From assembly GCA_947630745.1 (NCBI GenBank), contig CANRIT010000003.1, positions 55,503 through 119,502 of the forward strand: DNA of 64,000 bases, given 5' to 3'. Shown one piece after another: positions 12,026 to 44,488 of the stretch. The stretch is from an uncultured Clostridia bacterium. GTDB taxonomy: Bacteria; Bacillota; Clostridia; Christensenellales; UBA1242. The notes beneath the pieces are model-generated. The model worked only from the letters and a program-made list of their open reading frames with translations. It was not told the origin of the DNA and searched no databases. Made by a program: the position numbers and the translations under genes. Each line of letters begins with the position of its first letter. The first letter of the stretch is position 1.

Positions 12026-12165
12026 TATCCATAAAGAGTGTGCGAGGGACAGCCCCGTTGACCACACAGCAACCTGCTTTAAGCAAGGTGCTAATGGCTG
12101 ACCGATGGGTTTAATTTGATTTTTGCGCTCATCGGTAACGATGGGTTTTTTCATCTCTTTATGGT
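12026..12165 (+). promoter_or_regulatory. SAM-I (S-box) riboswitch leader of metK
   Basis: P1 CCATAAAGAG (12029-12038) pairs with CTCTTTATGG (12155-12164). Conserved core GAGGGA..GCCCC..GCAACC..AAGGTGCTAA present. Extended -10 TGTTATAAT at 12012-12020. Sits upstream of metK. Confidence 0.8.
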
Positions 12166-12181: not shown

Positions 12182-13276
12182 ATGATAAAATTTATCACCA
12201 GCGAATCGGTGAACATTGGACATCCGGACAAAACATGCGACACAATTGCGGATGCGTTTTTAGATGAGGCGCTTAGGCAGGATAAAAACAGCCAAATGGC
12301 GGTTGAATGCGCAATTAAAAACAACAAATTATTCATCTATGGCGAGGCGACAACAAAGGCAAAAATTAACTACAATAAAATTGCGCGGCAGGTTTTAAGC
12401 GAGATTGGGTACAAAAATCATTTTAAAATTATTAAAGAGATTTCACACCAAAGCCCGGATATAAATCAAGCCGTGGTAAAAAACAAGCTTATGGCAAATG
12501 ACCAAGGGATAATTTATGGTTACGCTTGCAACGAAACGGACGAGTTTATGCCGCTGCCAATTTTGATTGCTCACAAACTTATGAAAAGGTATGACGATTT
12601 TAGGCGCACAACCAGCACATATTTTGCCGATGCAAAAGCGCAAGTTTCGGTTAAGTACGAAGATGATGTGCCGCTTGAAATTACCACAATCTTAATAAGT
12701 GTATCGCATCACAAAAATTTAACTCAGCAGCAGATTGAAAACGAAATCAAATCAAATGTAATCATGCCAGTTTTGCAAAATTTTCCGCGATTTAAATTAG
12801 ACAACACGCGCTTTATAATCAACCCAAGTGGCAAATTTACAATTTGGGGAAGTTTTGGTGACAGTGGCTGTGTTGGCAGAAAAATTGTGGTGGATAGTTA
12901 TGGCGGAATAGGTCGAGTTGGCGGTGGCTGTTTCAGTTCCAAAAACGCAACCAAAGTTGATAGGTCAGCTGCATATTATTGTAGATATGTAGCAAAAAAT
13001 ATTGTGGCACACAATTTATGCGATAGGTGCGAAATTTCAGTTGCATATTCAATAGGTATGGAAAATCCAATTTCAATAAACATAGATTGTTTTAACTCAA
13101 ACAAAATACCCATGGAGGGTATATATAATTTTGTTAATAATAATTTTAATTTCAGCCTTAACAACATTATCGACGAACTAAATCTGTTAAATCCAATCTA
13201 TAAACAGACTGCATGTTATGGTCATTTTGGAAATGCAAGCTACCCATGGGAAAAGATTAAACAATGCAAAATTTAA
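12182..13276 (+). CDS. metK: S-adenosylmethionine synthetase
   Basis: SESVNIGHPDKTCD N-terminus, GDSGCVGRKIVVDSYGG and GGGCFSSKNATKVDRS motifs. 364 aa, slightly short for the family. Confidence 0.9.
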   Translation: MIKFITSESVNIGHPDKTCDTIADAFLDEALRQDKNSQMAVECAIKNNKLFIYGEATTKAKINYNKIARQVLSEIGYKNHFKIIKEISHQSPDINQAVVKNKLMANDQGIIYGYACNETDEFMPLPILIAHKLMKRYDDFRRTTSTYFADAKAQVSVKYEDDVPLEITTILISVSHHKNLTQQQIENEIKSNVIMPVLQNFPRFKLDNTRFIINPSGKFTIWGSFGDSGCVGRKIVVDSYGGIGRVGGGCFSSKNATKVDRSAAYYCRYVAKNIVAHNLCDRCEISVAYSIGMENPISINIDCFNSNKIPMEGIYNFVNNNFNFSLNNIIDELNLLNPIYKQTACYGHFGNASYPWEKIKQCKI

Positions 13277-19124: not shown

Positions 19125-19201
19125 TGAGATGTAGCTCAGCAGGTTAGAGCACCACCCTGATAAGGTGGGGGTCGGTGGTTCGAGTCCACTCATCTCAACC
19201 A
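19125..19201 (+). tRNA. tRNA-Ile (anticodon GAT), CCA encoded
   Basis: Manual cloverleaf with acceptor TGAGATG/CATCTCA, anticodon stem CCACC/GGTGG, loop CTGATAA, T-loop TTCGAGT. Confidence 0.88.
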
Positions 19202-19250
19202 GATCGCCACCTTATATGGAACAAAGTGAAATATAAGTGGGGCGAGGTGA

Positions 19251-19265
19251 TGAGTCCACTCATCT
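19251..19265 (+). repeat. Degenerate partial copy of the tRNA-Ile 3' part (copy 1)
   Basis: GAGTCCACTCATCT (19252-19265) is identical to tRNA positions 19182-19195. Upstream, CCACCTTATATGGA...GTGGGGCGAGGTGA mimics the anticodon stem through the T-stem. Confidence 0.7.
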
Positions 19266-19346
19266 AAGTAGGGTAACCTACTTTTTTTAGACCCCCACCT
19301 TATACGGAATATAATGTAGTATAAAGAACAGGGTCGTGAGGTCCAA

Positions 19347-19365
19347 AGTCCACTCATCTCAACCA
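19347..19365 (+). repeat. Partial copy of the tRNA-Ile 3' end (copy 2, 19 nt identical including CCA)
   Basis: AGTCCACTCATCTCAACCA is identical to 19183-19201. It is preceded by GGGTCG and CCACCTTATACGGA, as in copy 1. Confidence 0.8.
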
Positions 19366-31944: not shown

Positions 31945-31971
31945 AGGGGTGTGGGAGAAAAGGAGAAAAAT

Positions 31972-33075
31972 ATGACAAAGGAACAAATACGTTTAAAAGT
32001 TATTGATTATCTAAATGACAATCCAAGTATTTTAAAAGAGTTTGCAACTGTCAGGAGTGCTAGATTAAAATTGGAGGCAGATTTAAATCTGAACTACCCT
32101 TCATATGATGAGGTAACAATACAAAAAGTTATAACTGAGGTAGGAAATTGTAATGTCGAAGCGGTTGCTGATGATTTAATGAAAGGGCTCGCTTTTATGG
32201 GATATGGCGACGAGGACTATCACAAAGAACAATTAGAGGAATGCAAAAATAAAACTGACGAAGATTGCTATATATACTCAGTTTTTGATTGTGAAACCTG
32301 TAAAAAGTTGGGTACTTTTATTTCAACATATAAATCTTATCAAGAAAATATCGCTCTTGGTGGAGAACACAAAGAAAAGGTAGAAAAAATATACAATAGC
32401 GGTCTTGCTAAACGCGAACAGCATATAAAACATGGTAGAGAGATATTTAACGACTTTATAGCAAGATTTCAGGCTGCGTTGGAAAGAGACAAGCAAGATG
32501 ACATGCAGATGGATGAAATTATTCCTAGAAGAATAAATGATATGATCAAAGATGAAAAAACTCACATTGCCATGTTAAATAAAATTGAATATGCGGATGG
32601 CATTGTTGAAAAAGTATTTGATTTATTAGGTCAAAACATTCCTAAAAAGCAAGCACAAAAGATAGATAAAATTATAGAAATGAATGATGCAACCTTGGTT
32701 AATAACGTTTTAGATCGTTTAAAAGAAAATCCTACAAAAAACTTTATTGATTTAGGTAAAGTTTTGCTACAAACACCAGCACAAAATCCTGAAGAACTAA
32801 AATGGATGAAGGCTTTAGATGTTGCAGAAATGGTGACGGGTACAATTTTAACAGCAACTGGAATATTTACAAGTACGTTAACAGGCAATATTTCTTCTTT
32901 ATCTGTTACATTACCAGGTTTTGGTCTTATAGGATTGGGATTTGCTGGAATAAATCGGCATATTAAAAAAGCAAAAATTTGGGCTGAAAGAGATAGATTG
33001 GTTTCTTGTTGTGTTAATGATTTTCTTCATGAGGTTGAAGTTGAAAAAGCGATGCAAGCGGGATTAACAAATTAA
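31972..33075 (+). CDS. Hypothetical protein (367 aa): helical soluble region plus C-terminal Gly/Thr-rich transmembrane hairpin
   Basis: ATG 31972 follows AAAGGAGAAAAA. C-terminal VTGTILTATGIFTSTLTGNISSLSVTLPGFGLIGLGFAGI. AT-rich codon usage (AGA, GGA, TTA) unlike its neighbours. Confidence 0.6.
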   Translation: MTKEQIRLKVIDYLNDNPSILKEFATVRSARLKLEADLNLNYPSYDEVTIQKVITEVGNCNVEAVADDLMKGLAFMGYGDEDYHKEQLEECKNKTDEDCYIYSVFDCETCKKLGTFISTYKSYQENIALGGEHKEKVEKIYNSGLAKREQHIKHGREIFNDFIARFQAALERDKQDDMQMDEIIPRRINDMIKDEKTHIAMLNKIEYADGIVEKVFDLLGQNIPKKQAQKIDKIIEMNDATLVNNVLDRLKENPTKNFIDLGKVLLQTPAQNPEELKWMKALDVAEMVTGTILTATGIFTSTLTGNISSLSVTLPGFGLIGLGFAGINRHIKKAKIWAERDRLVSCCVNDFLHEVEVEKAMQAGLTN

Positions 33076-33089
33076 ATAAAGGGGTAAAT

Positions 33090-33299
33090 ATGAAAGTTAA
33101 TGATGTTATAAAAACCAAATCGGGCAATTTGTACACTATTCAGCGTGCAAAGGTTATAAATAAGGTTGAATATCTTGTGCTGTTTGAAGTGAGTACGGGT
33201 AATTTACTTATGGGATTTATCGAAAATGACGAACTGCAATTTGTAAACGACCCAAAAAAGCGCATTGAAATTGCCAAAGAGTTTGACAAAAAAGGATAA
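33090..33299 (+). CDS. Hypothetical small protein (69 aa)
   Basis: SD AAAGGGG. 14 nt downstream of the preceding orphan gene and followed by a terminator. No motif recognised. Confidence 0.5.
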   Translation: MKVNDVIKTKSGNLYTIQRAKVINKVEYLVLFEVSTGNLLMGFIENDELQFVNDPKKRIEIAKEFDKKG

Positions 33300-33308
33300 A
33301 AAGTAAAA

Positions 33309-33332
33309 GGATAGCATGTGCTATTCTTTTTT
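33309..33332 (+). terminator. Rho-independent terminator of the orphan cassette
   Basis: GGATAGCA-tg-TGCTATTC followed by T6. Confidence 0.7.
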
Positions 33333-33501
33333 ATATAAAGCTTTATAAATAAATTTTTTACAATTCATATGTATAGTTACTTAAAAACTATTATAATAAC
33401 TTGTAAAAATATACAACTTATATTATGTATTTTTTGCTTACTTTTTAAAAGTAAGTCGTTTTAAGGAGTCCGAGGGAAATCGAAATCCCTCGGTGCTTTT
33501 A

Positions 33502-36669: not shown

Positions 36670-36854
36670 AATGCCGCAAAAATATCATTTAGTTAGAATT
36701 TTTTATTATTTAAAACTAATAAACTAACCAAAATTGTGTTAAATTGTTTTGCAAATTTTAGGTTTGCGCTGCCCAAAATAACGCAAAATTTTTAAACATT
36801 ACAAAAATTTTTTTGCTTTAAAATTAAAAAAATCAAACTTTTATTAGTTGCAAA

Positions 36855-36893: not shown

Positions 36894-38519
36894 TTACACA
36901 TTCATGCCGTCATCGTGGTGGAAGAAGTTGCGGGTGTTTTCTCTGCGCCTTTCGTGGTTTGAATACATTTTAGGATTGCGTTTGTATTTTAAATCATCAT
37001 CAAACCTTTTTTGCATTGCGGATAGCATTGCAGATTTCCTTTTTTCTTCTTTATCATATTCTTCGCGTTTTGCGTCAACAATGGCTTTAAATTTTTCCCA
37101 TTCCTCATTGTAAATTTTGTCAACTTCTTCTTGCTGCATCCCTTGTTCAATAAGTTCGGAAATATATTCTTTTGCCAACAAATATCTGGTTTCGGCAATC
37201 TGTTTCATTGGCTCGCTGTCTTTAACGAAATTTTTGCATGGGGTTTTTGTAAGTTCTAAGTAAAACTCAGCAAGTTGAACGTTTTGCGAGCTGGTGTCGT
37301 ATTTTGTATTAGTATCGATTTTGTCTAAATTTTCTGCCGGTTTCTCTTCATCATTTTTAATATCTTCAGCTGCGTTATTGATTTCATCTAAGTTATTTTT
37401 ATCCGCCTTTGCACCATCATCCACAACTTGTTTGCGTGTTAGTCGCGCATATCTATCGGCGATGTTCTTTTTGAAAGTTTTAAAATCTTCGCTGCACGAT
37501 TTTGCAAACGAAACCATCTTCCAATATCCCTTTTTGTCCGAAGTAAATTTTATGTAGTCGGCTAGGGTGGTCACGCCTTGATTCATCAGATAGTTAAGCA
37601 AAGGTTCAGCCGTGCTAGGAACAAGGTTTTCTATGCTTAAATTGTCTTTTTCCAGCACAGTTTTAACCGCTTTCGTTATCATAAATTCATCTTTCTTGGT
37701 GGTGGCTTTACTAACCAAACCGCCACTATTTTTGTTGGCTTTTGGCTTGGCTTTTGCTTCTTCTGGCAACTTTAACAAGCCGTCTTCTTCCAAATTTTTA
37801 ATATGCGCCATAACATTGTCTAAAAACACGGTGTACGCGTTTTCATAGTTGACTTTGCAGTTGTGGTGAAATTTGTTGAAATACTCTTTGTTTGCCGCAA
37901 ATTTTGCAAAATCGCCAAGCGTTTTAACATTGCGCTTATACAAATAGTTTGCCATCAATGGGCAATCGGTAGGGATAAATTTGTCAATAGGGGTGGTGTC
38001 CAAAGTTAAATACGCTATGTAACTTTTAAATTTTGCAGTGGTAACCTTAATTGGGTCGTCAAACAAATTGTATTTGCTTGCCTCAATGTCGGATTTTGAC
38101 TTTGATTCCCTTTCTTCCTCGCGCAACTCAGTTGCCAATTCTTCTTGCAAATTTTTTAAATCGGACATTATAAAATCGGTAACCTTAAATTTGTCCGCAT
38201 ATAAAGTGTTTGCCGCAAGTTTAAGATTTTTAACAAGTGTGCCCATTTCTTCCATTCTGGCGGTTTTGGTGCTATCCATAAATGTTGGATTGTATTTAGC
38301 CAGCAACTGCCTTATATTATCTTCAAACAGAAAAAACTCTGGACAATCTAAAAACAATTTCCAAACAAAATTAGAAGTGATAGTTTTGCCCAAAATTCTA
38401 CCAACCGTGCGCGCTCTTGCTTCTTCAACTGAGCGGGCTGGTTGCCAAGATGTGTTTTTTATACATTTAATAAGTTCATCAGGTGATTTTTCTGACCTTT
38501 TTTGTCTATTATTACTCAT
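36894..38519 (-). CDS. Hypothetical protein (541 aa) with two internal HhH-like repeats resembling the RNA polymerase alpha C-terminal domain
   Basis: ATG 38519 follows a GGGGG SD. Repeats are CPLMANYLYKRNVKTLGDFAKF and EPLLNYLMNQGVTTLADYIKF. Charged coiled-coil linkers and a basic C-terminus. Confidence 0.65.
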   Translation of the reverse strand: MSNNRQKRSEKSPDELIKCIKNTSWQPARSVEEARARTVGRILGKTITSNFVWKLFLDCPEFFLFEDNIRQLLAKYNPTFMDSTKTARMEEMGTLVKNLKLAANTLYADKFKVTDFIMSDLKNLQEELATELREEERESKSKSDIEASKYNLFDDPIKVTTAKFKSYIAYLTLDTTPIDKFIPTDCPLMANYLYKRNVKTLGDFAKFAANKEYFNKFHHNCKVNYENAYTVFLDNVMAHIKNLEEDGLLKLPEEAKAKPKANKNSGGLVSKATTKKDEFMITKAVKTVLEKDNLSIENLVPSTAEPLLNYLMNQGVTTLADYIKFTSDKKGYWKMVSFAKSCSEDFKTFKKNIADRYARLTRKQVVDDGAKADKNNLDEINNAAEDIKNDEEKPAENLDKIDTNTKYDTSSQNVQLAEFYLELTKTPCKNFVKDSEPMKQIAETRYLLAKEYISELIEQGMQQEEVDKIYNEEWEKFKAIVDAKREEYDKEEKRKSAMLSAMQKRFDDDLKYKRNPKMYSNHERRRENTRNFFHHDDGMNV

Positions 38520-38538
38520 AATTTCCCCCAACAAATAT

Positions 38539-38567
38539 ATTATATCACATATTTAAATTTTAGTCAA
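38539..38567 (-). promoter_or_regulatory. Consensus sigma-A promoter (TTGACT-17-TATAAT) of the 541-aa orphan gene
   Basis: The reverse strand reads TTGACT (38567-62), a 17-nt spacer ending in TGTGA, then TATAAT (38544-39). Confidence 0.7.
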
Positions 38568-38618
38568 TAGGTTAGAAAAAAATTGTGCCATTTAGTACAA
38601 CTTTTTTATGTTTTTTTA

Positions 38619-38657
38619 TGGAGCTGATGGGCGGACTCGAACCGCCGACCTGCTGAT
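38619..38657 (-). repeat. 39-nt exact copy of the 3' part of tRNA-Thr(CGT), from anticodon stem to CCA
   Basis: TGGAGCTGATGGGCGGACTCGAACCGCCGACCTGCTGAT is identical to 38854-38892. No 5' half is present. Confidence 0.85.
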
Positions 38658-38853
38658 AATGAGCTGAGCAATTAAAACCACTATGGATTTAATTGCCAAG
38701 CGAATTTCATTGTGTAACAATTTAATGTAAAGACAATTAAATGGCATAAAAGGCAATTAAAGACATAAGTGAAGTTTTAAGTTGCGAAGCGAAATTATAT
38801 TGAAACATTGTTTTCAATATTGCGAATCAGATTCGTAAGCAGCAGTATAGAAG

Positions 38854-38929
38854 TGGAGCTGATGGGCGGACTCGAACCGCCGACCTGCTGATTACGAATC
38901 AGCTGCACTACCGGCTGTGCTACATCAGC
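38854..38929 (-). tRNA. tRNA-Thr (anticodon CGT), CCA encoded
   Basis: Manual cloverleaf with acceptor GCTGATG/CATCAGC, anticodon stem GCTGA/TCAGC, loop TTCGTAA, T-loop TTCGAGT. Confidence 0.88.
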
Positions 38930-38938
38930 GTACACAAT

Positions 38939-38967
38939 ATTTTAGCATAAATTTTTGCTTTTTACAA
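38939..38967 (-). promoter_or_regulatory. Sigma-A-type promoter of tRNA-Thr(CGT)
   Basis: The reverse strand reads TTGTAA-17-TAAAAT, about 10 nt upstream of the tRNA 5' end. Confidence 0.6.
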
Positions 38968-39140
38968 TAGATTTATGCAAGTTTTTAAAATTAATTTTTT
39001 ATTTATACCAGCATATCAAACAATTTTAACTAAAACCACAATTAAACATAATTAAACATTGTGTTTGCCACAAACAACTGGCGGATTTATTACATTTTTT
39101 CAAATTTTGCAAAATAATTTAAATTAACAAATTTATTTGC

Positions 39141-39169
39141 TTGCAAAAATGGATTTTGTTTGCTAAAAT
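39141..39169 (+). promoter_or_regulatory. Promoter placed for a leaderless transcript (TTGCAA-17-TGcTAAAAT)
   Basis: TTGCAA at 39141-46, TGCTAAAAT at 39161-69. ATG 39177 is 7 nt after the -10 box. Confidence 0.55.
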
Positions 39170-39176
39170 ATAGATA

Positions 39177-40517
39177 ATGTTGGCATTAAAAATTGTTTTA
39201 GGTATAATATTTGTAATTTTGTATGTTGTTATGATGAGCATAATGATTATTTTTGAACGCGACAAGCCCAAAAATATCATTTTGTGGACAATAGCATTTT
39301 TCTTTTTAAGTTTGGTGGGGTATGTGTGGTACACAGTTGCAAAAATTGTGCATTTCAACAAACAACACTCGCTTGTGGTCAAAGATTGGGAAGATGGGGT
39401 ATACAACAATTTGGTTAAGGAAAATTTGACCGACATTGGCATTGTTGCGGACGACAACGGCTTGTATCAATTCAACCAAATGGCGTACGGCAGCAAACTT
39501 ATAGTAAATAATCAAATTGAAATGTACACGGCGGCGGACAAGTTTAAATCCGCGCTTATTAAAGACTTGCAATCGGCAAAAGAGCGCATTATCCTTGAAC
39601 TTTCCCGCATCAACGCCCACGATTTTGCCACTATCGCAGACGCAATTTGCAAAAAGGCGCAACAAGGGGTGCTTGTGAAGTTTGTTTATGACAAATCAAT
39701 TGGCATCCGCCTTAAAAAACAGCTTAAAAACGCGGGTGTAAAGTTGCACAAATTCAGCAAATATCACACGCTTAACAACACTTTTTCCAACATGCGCAAC
39801 CTTATAACTATTGACGGCAAAATTTCATACATGGCAAATTTGGATGTAAAAAATCGTCAACTTAAACAAAATGCGGATGTTTTAGATGTGTTTATGCGCC
39901 TAACGGGTGAAGTGGTGCAAGAAATTAATTTATTAACCAACAAAGACACCACTTTTGCCAGCGGCAAATTTTTGCCGTACTGCCAAACCATAGCAGAAAC
40001 AAAGCAGCAAACCACAATGCAGTTTGTTGCAAACTCTTCGTCTGCGGATTTGGAACTTTTGATAATAAAAGCCATAACCACAGCCAAAAAGTCAATTGTG
40101 TTGCAGTTGGATGAATTTATCCCAACCGAAAGCATAATTTCGCTGCTGCGCTTTGCCATAAATTCGGGCATAGAAGTCAAGCTTATGGTGCCAATAAAAA
40201 TTATCCGCCCGTCCACATATTACGCAACGCGCGCGTACGCAAAACAGCTGGCACTTTATGGCGCAAATGTGTATTTGTACGATGGTTTTATCCGCTACAA
40301 TTCAATTGTCGTGGACGATAACTATGTAATTTACGGCTCGTTTAGGCTGGATAGGCAACACATCAACACCGCACTTCAAAGCCTTGTTATTGTGGAAGAT
40401 GAAAAAATTGTCGACCAGTTTATTAAGCAATTTGATTTGGGGGTGGAAAACAGCTTCCGCATCAGCAACGCGCGCTATATGCTTATTCAAGAAAGATTTT
40501 TCAAAAACTTTGTGTAA
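39177..40517 (+). CDS. Cardiolipin synthase-like phospholipase D family protein with both HKD motifs substituted
   Basis: Two N-terminal TM helices and two PLD domains. Motif 1 reads NMRNLITIDGK (expected HxKxxxxDG). Motif 2 reads GFIRYNSIVVDD (expected HxKxxxxD). Confidence 0.7.
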   Translation: MLALKIVLGIIFVILYVVMMSIMIIFERDKPKNIILWTIAFFFLSLVGYVWYTVAKIVHFNKQHSLVVKDWEDGVYNNLVKENLTDIGIVADDNGLYQFNQMAYGSKLIVNNQIEMYTAADKFKSALIKDLQSAKERIILELSRINAHDFATIADAICKKAQQGVLVKFVYDKSIGIRLKKQLKNAGVKLHKFSKYHTLNNTFSNMRNLITIDGKISYMANLDVKNRQLKQNADVLDVFMRLTGEVVQEINLLTNKDTTFASGKFLPYCQTIAETKQQTTMQFVANSSSADLELLIIKAITTAKKSIVLQLDEFIPTESIISLLRFAINSGIEVKLMVPIKIIRPSTYYATRAYAKQLALYGANVYLYDGFIRYNSIVVDDNYVIYGSFRLDRQHINTALQSLVIVEDEKIVDQFIKQFDLGVENSFRISNARYMLIQERFFKNFV

Positions 40518-44018: not shown

Positions 44019-44093
44019 TGGAGCTAGTGAGAGGAATCGAACCTCCAACCGGCTGATTACAAGTCAGCTGCTCTACCATTGAGCCACACTAGC
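44019..44093 (-). tRNA. tRNA-Thr (anticodon TGT), CCA encoded
   Basis: Acceptor GCTAGTG/CACTAGC, anticodon loop CTTGTAA, T-loop TTCGATT. Confidence 0.88.
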
Positions 44094-44235: not shown

Positions 44236-44266
44236 TGGTGCCTCGAACCGGAATCGAACCAGTGAC
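44236..44266 (-). repeat. 31-nt exact copy of the 3' end of tRNA-Phe (T-arm, acceptor 3' strand, CCA)
   Basis: TGGTGCCTCGAACCGGAATCGAACCAGTGAC is identical to 44413-44443. It is followed by TTGCAAGAGATTTGCTTGTGT (44267-87). Confidence 0.85.
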
Positions 44267-44351
44267 TTGCAAGAGATTTGCTTGTGTCCCTGTTTCTTTC
44301 AGGTTTTTTTTGGCTTATTTGTTACCCAAACCAATGTGGTTCAAGCAACTA

Positions 44352-44395
44352 TGGTGCCTCAGCGAACCATTAACTTGCAAGAGATTTGCTTGTGT
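44352..44395 (-). repeat. Degenerate second copy of the tRNA-Phe 3' end plus the TTGCAAGAGATTTGCTTGTGT motif
   Basis: TGGTGCCTC (44352-60) followed by AGCGAACC. An exact second copy of the 21-nt motif lies at 44375-95. Confidence 0.7.
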
Positions 44396-44412
44396 AACAT
44401 GGTTCGTGAGAA

Positions 44413-44488
44413 TGGTGCCTCGAACCGGAATCGAACCAGTGACACAAGGATTTTCAGTCCTTTGCTCTACCGACTGAGCTATCGAGGC
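44413..44488 (-). tRNA. tRNA-Phe (anticodon GAA), CCA encoded
   Basis: Acceptor GCCTCGA/TCGAGGC, anticodon loop CTGAAAA, T-loop TTCGATT. Confidence 0.9.

What the first reader, a model, noticed from the sequence alone, without database searches (positions are those of the whole stretch)
38619..38853. 39-nt exact duplicate of the tRNA-Thr(CGT) 3' part enclosing a ~195-bp segment rich in RCAATTAAA repeats
The intact tRNA-Thr(CGT) is complement(38854..38929). Its 3' 39 nt, from the anticodon-stem 3' strand to CCA, are repeated exactly at 38619-38657. This is the geometry of attL/attR core repeats left by integration at an anticodon-loop crossover site.

The enclosed 195 bp contains five copies of an RCAATTAAA-like motif:
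- 38668-77.
- 38687-96, inverted.
- 38717-26.
- 38733-42.
- 38753-62, which lies 20 bp from the previous copy.

The segment also contains two hairpins (TATTGAAACA..TGTTTTCAATA and GCGAATC-a-GATTCGT). Clustered short repeats next to an att core resemble integrase arm-type sites or iterons. The segment may be the stump of an integrative element, or a very small mobilisable att cassette.
Basis: partly seen in the sequence, partly recalled or inferred. Interest (0 to 1): 0.55.

Follow-up and report, generated by a model that had tools for sequence, protein, structure and literature searches.

The report
Integration scar beside a threonine tRNA gene
A perfect 39-base copy of the end of a threonine tRNA gene sits 196 bases downstream of that gene; it is most likely the worn-down remnant of mobile DNA that once inserted into the tRNA gene, which is a common and well-understood kind of scar.

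Summary
tRNA-Thr(CGT) is complement(38854..38929). Its last 39 nt (A38 to CCA) recur exactly at 38619-38657, in the same orientation, enclosing 196 bp. That spacer holds four exact and one degenerate RCAATTAAA; none of 20,000 local shuffles reaches four. Both hairpins are real.

This is the tRNA-gene-plus-displaced-3'-fragment geometry of site-specific integration with its boundary in the anticodon loop. No recombinase gene lies in the spacer, and none was found among the 17 window ORFs scanned. No larger relative of the spacer was found anywhere searched.

Relatives support a recombination hotspot:
- Two sister species carry orphan halves of this same tRNA, split at the anticodon loop. The element responsible brings its own tRNA-Thr(CGT).
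- One assembly breaks exactly at the A38 boundary.
- The genes between the tRNA and the conserved S1 gene differ in every lineage.

The spacer looks composite. Its tRNA-proximal ~65 bp, with a palindrome built from the anticodon arm, is shared with a distant relative. The RCAATTAAA part is unique.

Similar short tRNA-fragment modules follow tRNA-Ile and tRNA-Phe in this window.

Verdict: an ordinary, integrase-less att-flanked relic, CIME-like. Whether it can still move is untested. Interest is low to moderate.

The parts
38854..38929 (-). Intact tRNA-Thr(CGT) gene with encoded CCA. Its 5' half is contiguous with the conserved tRNA-cls spacer.
   Evidence: ARAGORN; Rfam tRNA 71.3 bits; 91% identity of 38863-38998 to the sister species L009.
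38854..38892 (-). Repeat copy inside the tRNA gene (tRNA positions 38-76), the attL-type core.
   Evidence: Exact 39-mer match; tRNA numbering.
38619..38657 (-). Orphan copy of tRNA positions 38-76, the displaced 3' fragment (attR-type core). It is not a tRNA gene.
   Evidence: Exact 39-mer match with 0 expected; no tRNA called here. The next 5 nt match at only 3 of 5, so the boundary is sharp (D2).
38658..38853 (.). 196-bp spacer (stump) between the two cores. It has no gene-sized ORF, no known RNA family and no second copy.
   Evidence: ORFs of at most 46 aa; no Rfam match at E<=10 other than tRNA-related noise; blastn against the window and loci finds only itself.
38668..38761 (.). Cluster of RCAATTAAA sites: 38668(+), 38688(-), 38717(+, degenerate ACAATTTAA), 38733(+), 38753(+). 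The first two form the inverted pair GCAATTAAA-N11-TTTAATTGC. The last two are direct repeats 20 bp apart. These are candidate protein-binding sites (arm-type, Xis or repressor); this is inferred.
   Evidence: D10, I3, I8; 4 observed against 0.05 expected; 0 of 20,000 shuffles reach 4.
38797..38820 (.). Imperfect palindrome ATATTGAAA-cattgt-TTTCAATAT.
   Evidence: Sequence; predicted 9-bp stem.
38819..38845 (.). ATTGCGAATCAGATTCGTAAGCAGCAG, a palindrome (CGAATC-A-GATTCG) built from the anticodon arm. 38830-38845 is an inverted copy of tRNA positions 30-45 (15/16). 38822-38829 is an exact direct copy of positions 28-35, which extends to T39 with one mismatch. It is probably the core half-site and truncated orphan of an older integration event (inferred).
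   Evidence: I7, D11; exact matches inv 30-38 and dir 28-35; unique in the window with 0.03 expected; the only other occurrence in all loci lies downstream of tRNA-Thr(CGT) in L008.
38790..38853 (-). tRNA-proximal part of the stump, homologous to the stretch downstream of tRNA-Thr(CGT) in the distant relative L008.
   Evidence: MAFFT alignment A1.
38539..38567 (-). Strong sigma-70-like promoter (TTGACT-17-TATAAT with extended TG) for the lineage-specific 541-aa gene, directly after the orphan copy.
   Evidence: 11 of 12 positions match.
36894..38519 (-). Lineage-specific 541-aa gene filling the variable slot between the conserved S1 gene and the tRNA. It is context, possibly island cargo.
   Evidence: Only itself among 5.8e9 proteins by word search; 16 remote relatives at 25-33% identity by HMMER; no Pfam or PHROG family. 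Homology to L019 and L020 stops at 36672 and resumes at 38617.
38939..38967 (-). Promoter-like site just upstream of the tRNA. No terminator-like site lies between the tRNA and the orphan, so the stump is probably co-transcribed as a 3' trailer (inferred).
   Evidence: 9 of 12 positions with TG; 0 terminator-like sites in 38300-39300.

Best explanation
The 39-nt repeat is the pair of att cores left by site-specific integration of a mobile element into tRNA-Thr(CGT). The recombinase was most probably a tyrosine recombinase. The element carried a copy of tRNA positions 38-76. Recombination at or near the anticodon loop rebuilt an intact tRNA at one junction and pushed the original 3' fragment to the far junction.

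The element has since lost its recombinase and all cargo. Only 196 bp remain, so the locus is an integrase-less, att-flanked relic. Formally it is a minimal CIME-like remnant.

The relic is probably composite:
- The ~65 bp next to the tRNA look like the leftover of a second, related event. They contain a palindrome made from the anticodon arm and a truncated copy of tRNA positions 28-39.
- The ~130 bp next to the orphan carry the RCAATTAAA sites. These are most likely binding sites for the lost element's integrase, excisionase or regulator.

Shown: the repeat geometry, the local motif enrichment, the hotspot behaviour of this tRNA in relatives, and the absence of a recombinase gene from the spacer and from the 17 window ORFs scanned. 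Inferred: the recombinase class, the function of the repeats, the number and order of events, and the absence of present-day mobility.
For: 1. The repeat is exact, direct, ends at the encoded CCA and begins at A38 in the anticodon loop. There are only two copies and no copy of the 5' half. This is the geometry used to define tRNA-borne islands: a regenerated target plus a displaced fragment. 2083 of 3919 Islander islands are anticodon-centred (PMC4383910). A common core of 30-45 bp covering the tRNA 3' half is typical (PMC10865867).

2. Sister species show the same tRNA in recombinant states.
- L010 and L021 come from two independent samples. Each has the native 5' half ending at the anticodon loop TTCGTAA, followed by foreign DNA that carries a different complete tRNA-Thr(CGT) (62/76 identical).
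- L019 has the native 3' part, from T32 to CCA, joined to foreign DNA.
- Both foreign arms carry clustered TAGGTGTA/AGGTGTAT repeats next to the junction. This is a direct analogue of the RCAATTAAA cluster.

3. L020 ends exactly at the A38 boundary. It overlaps L009, from the same run, by 30 nt, which would equal k-1 if that assembly used k = 31 (an assumption, not checked). This indicates an assembly-graph branch at that very position.

4. The slot between the conserved S1 gene and the tRNA holds unrelated genes in the window, L019, L020 and L011-L015. In the window it holds a near-ORFan.

5. More distant relatives have the plain tRNA with no duplicate.

6. RCAATTAAA is enriched about 80-fold locally.

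7. The tRNA-proximal part of the stump, including the anticodon-derived palindrome, recurs downstream of the same tRNA in the distant relative L008. In both, the direct arm stops at T39.
Against: - No integrase or other mobile-element gene lies in the spacer, and none was found among the 17 window ORFs scanned.
- No larger element with the same arms, the same junctions or the RCAATTAAA cluster was found. The searches covered 8 scans of viral contigs, 2 scans of metagenome contigs, INPHARED phages, PLSDB plasmids and 23 fetched loci.
- The 7 nt next to the orphan (CTCATTA) differ from the anticodon loop (TTCGTAA). The crossover therefore cannot be placed in the loop itself.
- The orphan is 39/39 identical although it should be free to drift. 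This needs recency, gene conversion or selection to explain it.
- Three tRNA genes in one 64-kb window carry short modules of similar build. That is more regular than random erosion of large elements would predict.
Confidence: 0.72

Rival explanations
1. The 235-bp unit (spacer plus one core) is a still-functional miniature att cassette. It would be a non-autonomous element that a related integrase, encoded elsewhere or by an incoming element, can excise and re-integrate. It could also serve as a secondary landing site into which further elements accrete.
For: Both cores are perfect, 39/39. The spacer size, 196 + 39 bp, is close to a complete lambda-type attP (about 240 bp, from my own knowledge). 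It carries clustered repeats in both orientations. CIMEs are defined as elements that kept attL and attR but lost integration and transfer genes, and they can be mobilised through accretion (PMC5704250). Active elements that target this tRNA exist in the genus.
Against: No second copy of the spacer was found in the window, in 23 related loci or in any collection searched. No cognate integrase was found among the 17 window ORFs scanned. The elements seen in sister species use a different core (7 nt) and different arm repeats.
Confidence: 0.1
2. The spacer and orphan act at the RNA level. They would be part of the tRNA-Thr 3' trailer, forming a structured RNA. In it the inverted anticodon-arm copy pairs with the tRNA or the orphan, affecting tRNA maturation or acting as a small RNA or decoy.
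For: No terminator-like site lies between the tRNA and the orphan. The tRNA-sense strand folds well beyond shuffles, z = -5.2, and the tRNA-Ile region gives z = -6.4. The trailer starts with a sequence complementary to the tRNA's own anticodon arm at both tRNA-Thr and tRNA-Ile.
Against: The low folding energy follows automatically from inverted DNA repeats. There is no Rfam family. The module is absent from most relatives of the same family, so it is not a conserved part of tRNA expression. There is no alignment depth to test covariation.
Confidence: 0.07
3. The duplication arose without a site-specific recombinase. Candidate routes are fold-back or template-switch DNA synthesis at the tRNA gene's hairpins, or insertion of a reverse-transcribed tRNA 3' fragment. 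The orphan starts at A38, one base 3' of position 37. On general knowledge of tRNAs that read ANN codons, that base would be expected to carry t6A, a modification that blocks reverse transcriptase. This was not tested here.
For: Every module seen pairs a direct 3' copy ending in CCA with a short inverted copy of the adjoining arm: Thr(CGT), Ile and Phe in the window, and Thr(TGT) in L009. That is what snap-back synthesis would give. The A38 start fits a stop at position 37.
Against: The inverted copy at tRNA-Ile includes positions 36-37, and the older direct copy at tRNA-Thr includes positions 28-37. Both lie beyond the supposed stop. No reverse transcriptase was seen among the 17 ORFs scanned. 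CCA is genome-encoded here, so it does not argue for an RNA origin. Sister species show clean two-sided recombinant junctions with foreign DNA at the same loop, which is the signature of recombinases.
Confidence: 0.06
4. The duplicate is an assembly artefact of a metagenome-assembled genome, such as a strain bubble laid out in tandem.
For: The source appears to be a metagenome-derived contig of a rare organism; the one short protein tried (125 aa) was found only on two short, low-coverage contigs. Assemblies of relatives do break at this tRNA.
Against: The two flanks of the repeat are unique and continuous with conserved genes on both sides. Orphan halves of the same tRNA are seen independently in three other assemblies, one of them in two samples. 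The same window holds two further short-range tRNA-fragment copies at other tRNAs.
Confidence: 0.03

Closest known systems
tRNA-integrated genomic islands and prophages of the anticodon-centred class (Williams 2002 sublocation classes; Islander, PMC4383910)
   Same: An intact tRNA gene plus a displaced 3' fragment in the same orientation. The identity block runs from the anticodon loop to the 3' end and is 39 bp long, within the usual 30-45 bp. The tRNA is a hotspot with variable flanking cargo.
   Different: The interval is 196 bp rather than kilobases and holds no integrase. It would be rejected by Islander's integrase and length filters. The loop-side 7 nt next to the orphan are not identical to the anticodon loop.
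CIMEs, cis-mobilizable elements of streptococci (decayed ICE/IME that kept attL and attR; PMC5704250)
   Same: It has lost all integration and transfer genes but keeps both att cores. It lies at a tRNA 3' end where further elements can accrete. There are signs of nested or tandem relics.
   Different: Known CIMEs are, as far as I recall (not checked here), kilobases long and were shown to move by accretion with a cognate ICE. Here the size is 196 bp, descent from an ICE or IME is not shown, and mobility is untested.
tRNA-dependent lysogeny of actinobacteriophages (Guerrero-Bustamante & Hatfull 2024, PMC10865867)
   Same: This applies to the sister-species loci L010, L021 and L019, not to the window. 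[quoted passage not shown] The paper describes related phages with a long core (tRNA restored) and a short core (tRNA replaced) using the same attB. That parallels the window's 39-bp relic and the 7-nt element of its sister species.
   Different: The window's relic restores the tRNA and carries no tRNA of its own. The sister-species element is seen only as contig ends, so no integrase gene or phage identity is shown, and no experiment has been done.
MITEs and PATEs (non-autonomous derivatives of IS elements)
   Same: Small size, no coding capacity, internal and subterminal hairpins.
   Different: There are no terminal inverted repeats at the spacer ends. The flanking 'duplication' is 39 bp of tRNA rather than a 2-14 bp target-site duplication. 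It is single-copy.

Membership tests
tRNA-borne integrative island or prophage (Islander criteria) | Complete tDNA plus a cognate tDNA fragment on the same replicon, in the same orientation, with the fragment on the 3' side | tested here: met
   a 39/39 copy on the same strand, 196 bp downstream of the tRNA 3' end.
tRNA-borne integrative island or prophage (Islander criteria) | Fragment boundary at a recognised crossover sublocation (anticodon loop, T loop or T/acceptor junction) | tested here: met
   The boundary lies at A38, the last base of the anticodon loop. Sister-species junctions lie in the same loop.
tRNA-borne integrative island or prophage (Islander criteria) | An integrase gene inside the interval | tested here: not met
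   The interval is 196 bp with ORFs of at most 46 aa. No integrase family was found in the 17 window ORFs scanned with Pfam, five of them also with PHROGs.
tRNA-borne integrative island or prophage (Islander criteria) | Island-sized interval carrying cargo | tested here: not met
   The interval is only 196 bp. The adjacent 2-kb lineage-specific gene lies outside the repeat pair, and no third repeat bounds it.
CIME (cis-mobilizable element) | attL and attR retained | tested here: inconclusive
   Both core repeats are perfect. Whether the arms are complete cannot be judged without the parent attP.
CIME (cis-mobilizable element) | Integration and transfer genes lost | tested here: met
   The spacer has no coding capacity.
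CIME (cis-mobilizable element) | Derived from an ICE or IME, and mobilisable in cis after accretion with a cognate element | not testable with these tools
   No parent element was found. This needs excision and transfer assays.
MITE or IS-derived miniature element | Terminal inverted repeats, a short target-site duplication, and multiple copies in the genome | tested here: not met
   The ends are not inverted repeats of each other. The flanking repeat is 39 bp of tRNA. There is no second copy in 64 kb or in related loci.
Group I intron or other known RNA family in or next to a tRNA | Match to a covariance model | tested here: not met
   Rfam at E<=10 over 38000-39500 gives only the tRNA and sub-threshold noise.
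Element using tRNA-dependent lysogeny | A short core that fails to rebuild the tRNA, plus an element-borne tRNA of the same isotype | tested here: not met
   In the window the tRNA is rebuilt by a 39-bp core and there is no second tRNA-Thr(CGT). The two sequence features are present in sister-species loci: L010 and L021 have the short core and the element-borne tRNA, and L019 has the matching orphan 3' part.

The most novel reading that the evidence does not exclude
In this lineage, short modules recur directly behind tRNA genes. Each is an inverted copy of a tRNA arm, then a spacer of 7 to about 170 nt, then a direct copy of the tRNA 3' end through CCA. They follow Thr(CGT), Ile(GAT) and Phe(GAA) in this window and Thr(TGT) in a sister species.

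They might be a distinct class of miniature recombination-site cassettes rather than random wreckage of large elements. Such cassettes could be kept, or repeatedly made, because they offer complete secondary attachment sites. An incoming element, including the tRNA-splitting type seen in sister species, could then land in the cassette instead of in the working tRNA gene. Alternatively a resident integrase could move them in trans.
Probability: 0.1. Interest if true: 0.6.

Novelty: new member of a known kind. Interest (0 to 1): 0.3.

Why it matters
As an integration scar it matters mainly for annotation and for genome history.
- It marks tRNA-Thr(CGT) as a recombination hotspot in an uncultured gut lineage of Christensenellales-like Clostridia.
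- It explains why the neighbouring 541-aa gene is lineage-specific.
- It warns annotators against calling the orphan a tRNA pseudogene or a split tRNA.

Two side observations give it somewhat more value.
- Sister species appear to carry an element that splits this tRNA and supplies its own copy. If confirmed, that would extend tRNA-dependent lysogeny, described in 2024 for actinobacteriophages, to gut Firmicutes.
- Three of eleven tRNA genes in this window carry similarly built short modules. This hints at a regular process, or at retention of att sites, which could be tested with long-read metagenomes.

Tried and rejected
Searches for a parent element, all negative:
- Predicted attP junctions, the 39-mer itself, orphan-type cores (core followed by any base other than T), the sister-species element's tRNA, the GCAATTAAA-N-TTTAATTGCC pair and the conserved palindrome were each scanned against viral contigs. 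All 8 scans found nothing relevant; the only two hits were chance matches inside coding sequence of large phages.
- The 39-mer found nothing in JGI metagenome contigs. The relaxed orphan pattern found only unrelated GC-rich organisms.
- blastn of the locus against INPHARED phages hit only tRNA genes. The human-gut 'phage' contigs H1, H2 and H5 carry ordinary tRNAs or an unrelated att fragment. PLSDB gave nothing significant.

Confirming the stump in another sample:
- Exact-protein look-ups failed for every window protein tried that flanks the stump (cls, the 541/546-aa gene and a 46-aa spacer ORF).
- The organism is rare. Only two short contigs carry its 125-aa protein, and neither reaches the tRNA.

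Ideas considered and dropped:
- A group I intron or other known RNA: no Rfam match.
- Tandem tRNA duplication followed by decay: the 3' half is 39/39 identical while the 5' half has no trace of a copy.
- A third, degenerate att copy bounding the 541-aa gene: local alignment is no better than shuffles.
- Homology between the 541-aa protein and the other unknown proteins next to tRNA-Thr genes: none.
- An IS200/IS605-type miniature element: it is single-copy and has no family hallmarks.
- The weak Rfam HPnc0260 hits at both the Thr and Ile loci: these reflect only tRNA-antisense similarity.

Full report
**1. The observation**

- ARAGORN and Rfam place one intact tRNA-Thr(CGT) at complement(38854..38929).
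- Its last 39 nt on the tRNA strand are ATCAGCAGGTCGGCGGTTCGAGTCCGCCCATCAGCTCCA. They recur exactly at complement(38619..38657).
- These are the only two copies in 64 kb even with three mismatches allowed, and none is expected by chance.
- In tRNA numbering the repeat runs from A38, the last base of the anticodon loop, through the 3' anticodon stem, variable loop, T arm and acceptor strand to the genome-encoded CCA.
- The boundary is sharp. The next five bases match at only three positions (D2). No trace of the tRNA 5' half is found near the orphan, in the 2 kb beyond it, or upstream of the tRNA.
- The enclosed spacer is 38658-38853, 196 bp.

**2. The repeats in the spacer**

- RCAATTAAA is not enriched in the window as a whole: 12 found against 12.1 expected.
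- Four of the twelve copies lie within 94 bp of the spacer, and a fifth degenerate copy (ACAATTTAA) lies among them.
- Dinucleotide-preserving shuffles of the spacer itself give 0.05 copies on average. None of 20,000 shuffles reaches four. No other 200-bp bin of the window has more than one CAATTAAA.
- The first two sites form an inverted pair, GCAATTAAA-N11-TTTAATTGC. The last two are direct repeats 20 bp apart within a 13-nt repeat (D10).

- 38830-38845 is a 15/16 inverted copy of the tRNA's own positions 30-45.
- The adjoining arm is a direct copy of positions 28-39 with one mismatch.
- Together they form the palindrome CGAATC-A-GATTCG, which is unique in the window.

**3. What the spacer is not**

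- It has no gene-sized open reading frame; the longest ORF is 46 aa.
- It has no Rfam match beyond tRNA-related noise.
- It has no terminal inverted repeats.
- It has no second copy in the window or in any fetched locus.
- It has no relative in phage or plasmid records.
- None of the 17 window ORFs scanned with Pfam, five of them also with PHROGs, matches a recombinase or another recognisable mobile-element family.

**4. Context and relatives**

The neighbouring cls gene and S1-domain gene identify the organism as an uncultured member of a Christensenellales-like group of Clostridia. The nearest named relative is Candidatus Onthoplasma, at about 50% cls identity.

In all relatives, tRNA-Thr(CGT) lies divergent from cls. 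The more distant ones (L006, L007, L011-L015) have the plain tRNA with no duplicate.

Three closer genomes, with about 81-83% nucleotide identity in flanking genes, are informative.
- **L010 and L021.** These are two independent samples. The native 5' half of the tRNA is still joined to the conserved tRNA-cls spacer, but it ends right after the anticodon loop TTCGTAA. It is followed by 55 bp of foreign DNA and then a different, complete tRNA-Thr(CGT), 62/76 identical to the native one.
- **L019.** The native 3' part, from T32 to CCA, is joined on its loop side to foreign DNA.
- **Shared features.** The sequence common to both junctions is the 7-nt anticodon loop. Both foreign arms carry clusters of TAGGTGTA/AGGTGTAT repeats in both orientations next to the junction.
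- **L020.** This contig ends exactly at the A38 boundary. It overlaps L009, from the same sequencing run, by 30 nt, which would equal k-1 if that assembly used k = 31 (an assumption, not checked). L009 continues into the intact tRNA. The assembly graph therefore branches at that very base.

The interval between the S1 gene's terminator and the tRNA holds unrelated genes in the window, L019, L020 and L011-L015.
- In the window it holds a 541-aa protein. The word-based search of 5.8 billion proteins returns only the protein itself.
- Exhaustive HMMER finds just 16 remote relatives at 25-33% identity.

So this tRNA is a recombination hotspot whose crossovers fall in the anticodon loop.

**5. Interpretation**

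A complete tRNA gene plus a displaced 3' fragment in the same orientation is the standard signature of integration by a tyrosine integrase.
- The element carries the 3' part of the tRNA in its attP, so the gene is rebuilt at one junction and the original fragment is displaced to the other (PMC4383910; PMC9897764).
- Common cores of 30-45 bp that cover the tRNA 3' half are typical (PMC10865867).
- Anticodon-centred sites are the commonest class in Islander, 2083 of 3919 islands.

The window's locus fits this in every respect except that the interval is 196 bp and has no integrase. I therefore read it as a relic: an element that integrated here and was then deleted down to its att-proximal DNA. 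By definition this is CIME-like, meaning that attL and attR are kept while the integration and transfer genes are lost (PMC5704250). Descent from a conjugative element and cis-mobilisation are both untested.

By analogy with the TAGGTGTA clusters at the live junctions in sister species, the RCAATTAAA cluster next to the orphan core is best explained as binding sites for a protein of the lost element. Candidates are integrase arm-type sites, or operators for an excisionase or repressor given the inverted pair. This is inference. Iterons of a replication origin are not excluded, but no rep gene is present.

**6. The relic is probably composite**

- The 65 bp next to the tRNA (38790-38853) align with the stretch downstream of tRNA-Thr(CGT) in L008, a distant relative with 48% cls identity. 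The aligned part includes the anticodon-derived palindrome and the following AATATT...AATTTC.C.TCG.
- The palindrome occurs nowhere else in the window or in the 23 loci.
- In both genomes the direct arm matches the tRNA up to T39 and then diverges.
- The simplest reading is that this is the remains of another attR-type site: an element-borne half-site that mirrors the anticodon 3' stem, plus a truncated older orphan. At least two integration events would then be stacked here, as in the tandem accretions described for tRNA-borne elements.
- The order of events, and the reconstruction of a 13-7-13 core-like site, are hypothetical.

**7. Rivals**

- **A still-mobile mini-cassette.** This cannot be excluded, because the cores are perfect and the size resembles a full attP. 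Nothing supports it, since there is no second copy anywhere.
- **An RNA-level role.** The absence of a terminator and strong predicted folding, z = -5.2, suggest it. But inverted DNA repeats give such scores automatically, and the module is missing from most relatives.
- **A non-recombinase origin (fold-back synthesis or reverse transcription stopping at position 37).** This fits the A38 start. It fails for the inverted and older direct copies, which include positions 28-37, and no reverse transcriptase was seen among the 17 ORFs scanned.
- **An assembly artefact.** This is unlikely, given unique flanks continuous with conserved genes and independent orphan halves in three other assemblies.

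**8. Seen in passing, and relevant**

The Thr(CGT) case is not alone.
- **tRNA-Phe(GAA), complement(44413..44488).** Its last 31 nt are repeated exactly at 44236-44266. A degenerate third copy lies between. Each orphan is preceded by the same 21-mer, which forms a 5-bp stem and 7-nt loop.
- **tRNA-Ile(GAT), 19125..19201.** It is followed by two tandem ~90-bp units. Each has an inverted copy of the anticodon arm (an exact 9-nt core within a ~12/14 match, and 14/14), a hairpin, and a copy of the tRNA 3' end (14/14 and 19/19), and each ends in terminator hairpins.
- **tRNA-Thr(TGT) in sister species L009.** It has a 15-nt inverted copy of its T arm and an 18-nt direct 3' copy.
- A systematic scan found such copies at 3 of 11 tRNAs in the window and at none of 29 tRNAs in the fetched loci of relatives.

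This regularity is the one aspect that simple erosion does not fully explain. It underlies the novel reading given separately.

**9. Verdict**

- The function of the repeats is inferred, and the 'mobilisable cassette' alternative is unsupported.
- This is a new instance of a well-known kind of feature. The interest is low to moderate, raised slightly by the hotspot evidence, by the tRNA-replacing element in sister species, and by the recurrence of similar modules at other tRNA genes.

Noticed in passing
window 44236-44412 (next to tRNA-Phe(GAA), complement 44413..44488): The 3' 31 nt of tRNA-Phe (positions 46-76) are repeated exactly at 44236-44266. A degenerate, internally deleted copy lies at about 44345-44367. 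Each orphan abuts the same 21-mer TTGCAAGAGATTTGCTTGTGT (44265-44287 and 44373-44395; the enclosing 33-nt repeat is 94% identical), which forms a 5-bp stem with a 7-nt loop. It looks like two stacked attR-type scars inside the tRNA cluster. The order of Tyr and Thr(TGT) downstream also differs from relatives L011 and L012.
   Followed up: partly
window 19202-19365 (downstream of tRNA-Ile(GAT), 19125..19201): There are two tandem ~88-94-bp units. Each contains an inverted copy of the tRNA's anticodon loop, 3' stem and variable region (GATCGCCACCTTAT, ~12/14 with an exact 9-nt core; GACCCCCACCTTAT, 14/14). Each also has a long hairpin and a direct copy of the tRNA 3' end (GAGTCCACTCATCT; AGTCCACTCATCTCAACCA). 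Each unit is followed by terminator-like hairpins. The region folds with z = -6.4.
   Followed up: partly
L010 1-440 and L021 1-150 (ENA ERZ27249546 and ERZ27249050); L019 11682-12312 (GCA_947632645.1): In sister species, tRNA-Thr(CGT) is split at the anticodon loop; the sequence common to both junctions is the 7 nt TTCGTAA. The inserted DNA carries its own, different, complete tRNA-Thr(CGT), 55 bp from the junction, and clusters of TAGGTGTA repeats at both ends. This matches the two sequence hallmarks of tRNA-dependent lysogeny (PMC10865867), here in gut Clostridia. The integrase and the body of the element were not recovered.
   Followed up: partly
L020 10280-10318 and L009 1-30 (Logan ERR14656748): One contig ends exactly at the A38 boundary of the 39-mer. 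It overlaps by 30 nt the contig that continues into the intact tRNA. This suggests two alternative continuations (occupied and empty site, or two strains) in that sample.
   Followed up: partly
L009 7100-7312: Next to tRNA-Thr(TGT) of a sister species lie an exact 15-nt inverted copy of the T arm (20 nt after CCA) and an exact 18-nt direct copy of the tRNA 3' end, separated by about 98 bp that contain hairpins. The window's own tRNA-Thr(TGT) (44019..44093) lacks this.
   Followed up: partly
L008 5660-5745: A perfect 16-bp palindrome, TACGAATCGATTCGTA, built from the anticodon loop of tRNA-Thr(CGT), lies about 45-55 nt downstream of that tRNA in a distant relative. It is followed by sequence homologous to window 38790-38820 and then by what looks, by eye only, like a truncated acetyltransferase-like reading frame. 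There is no orphan 3' half within 5.7 kb.
   Followed up: partly
window 36894-38519 (-): A 541-aa lysine/glutamate-rich protein with its own near-consensus promoter. It has no Pfam or PHROG family. It is the only member of its kind by word search among 5.8 billion proteins, and it has 16 remote relatives (25-33% identity, 231-436 aa) by exhaustive HMMER. It fills the variable slot between the S1 gene and the tRNA.
   Followed up: partly
window 31946-33497: A second lineage-specific insertion relative to L019 and L020, between the pseudouridine synthase gene and the HI0933-like flavoprotein gene. It holds ORFs of 374 aa and 69 aa with no family match. Relatives carry different small genes at this position.
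   Followed up: no
window 39038-39060: ACAATTAAACATAATTAAACA lies upstream of the tRNA, outside the repeat pair. It contains one more exact RCAATTAAA and a near copy. It is not conserved at the equivalent position in L009 or L010, and its meaning is unknown.
   Followed up: no
window 12026-12147 (+): A SAM riboswitch (65.5 bits) lies upstream of the S-adenosylmethionine synthetase gene (12182-13276). This is ordinary.
   Followed up: no
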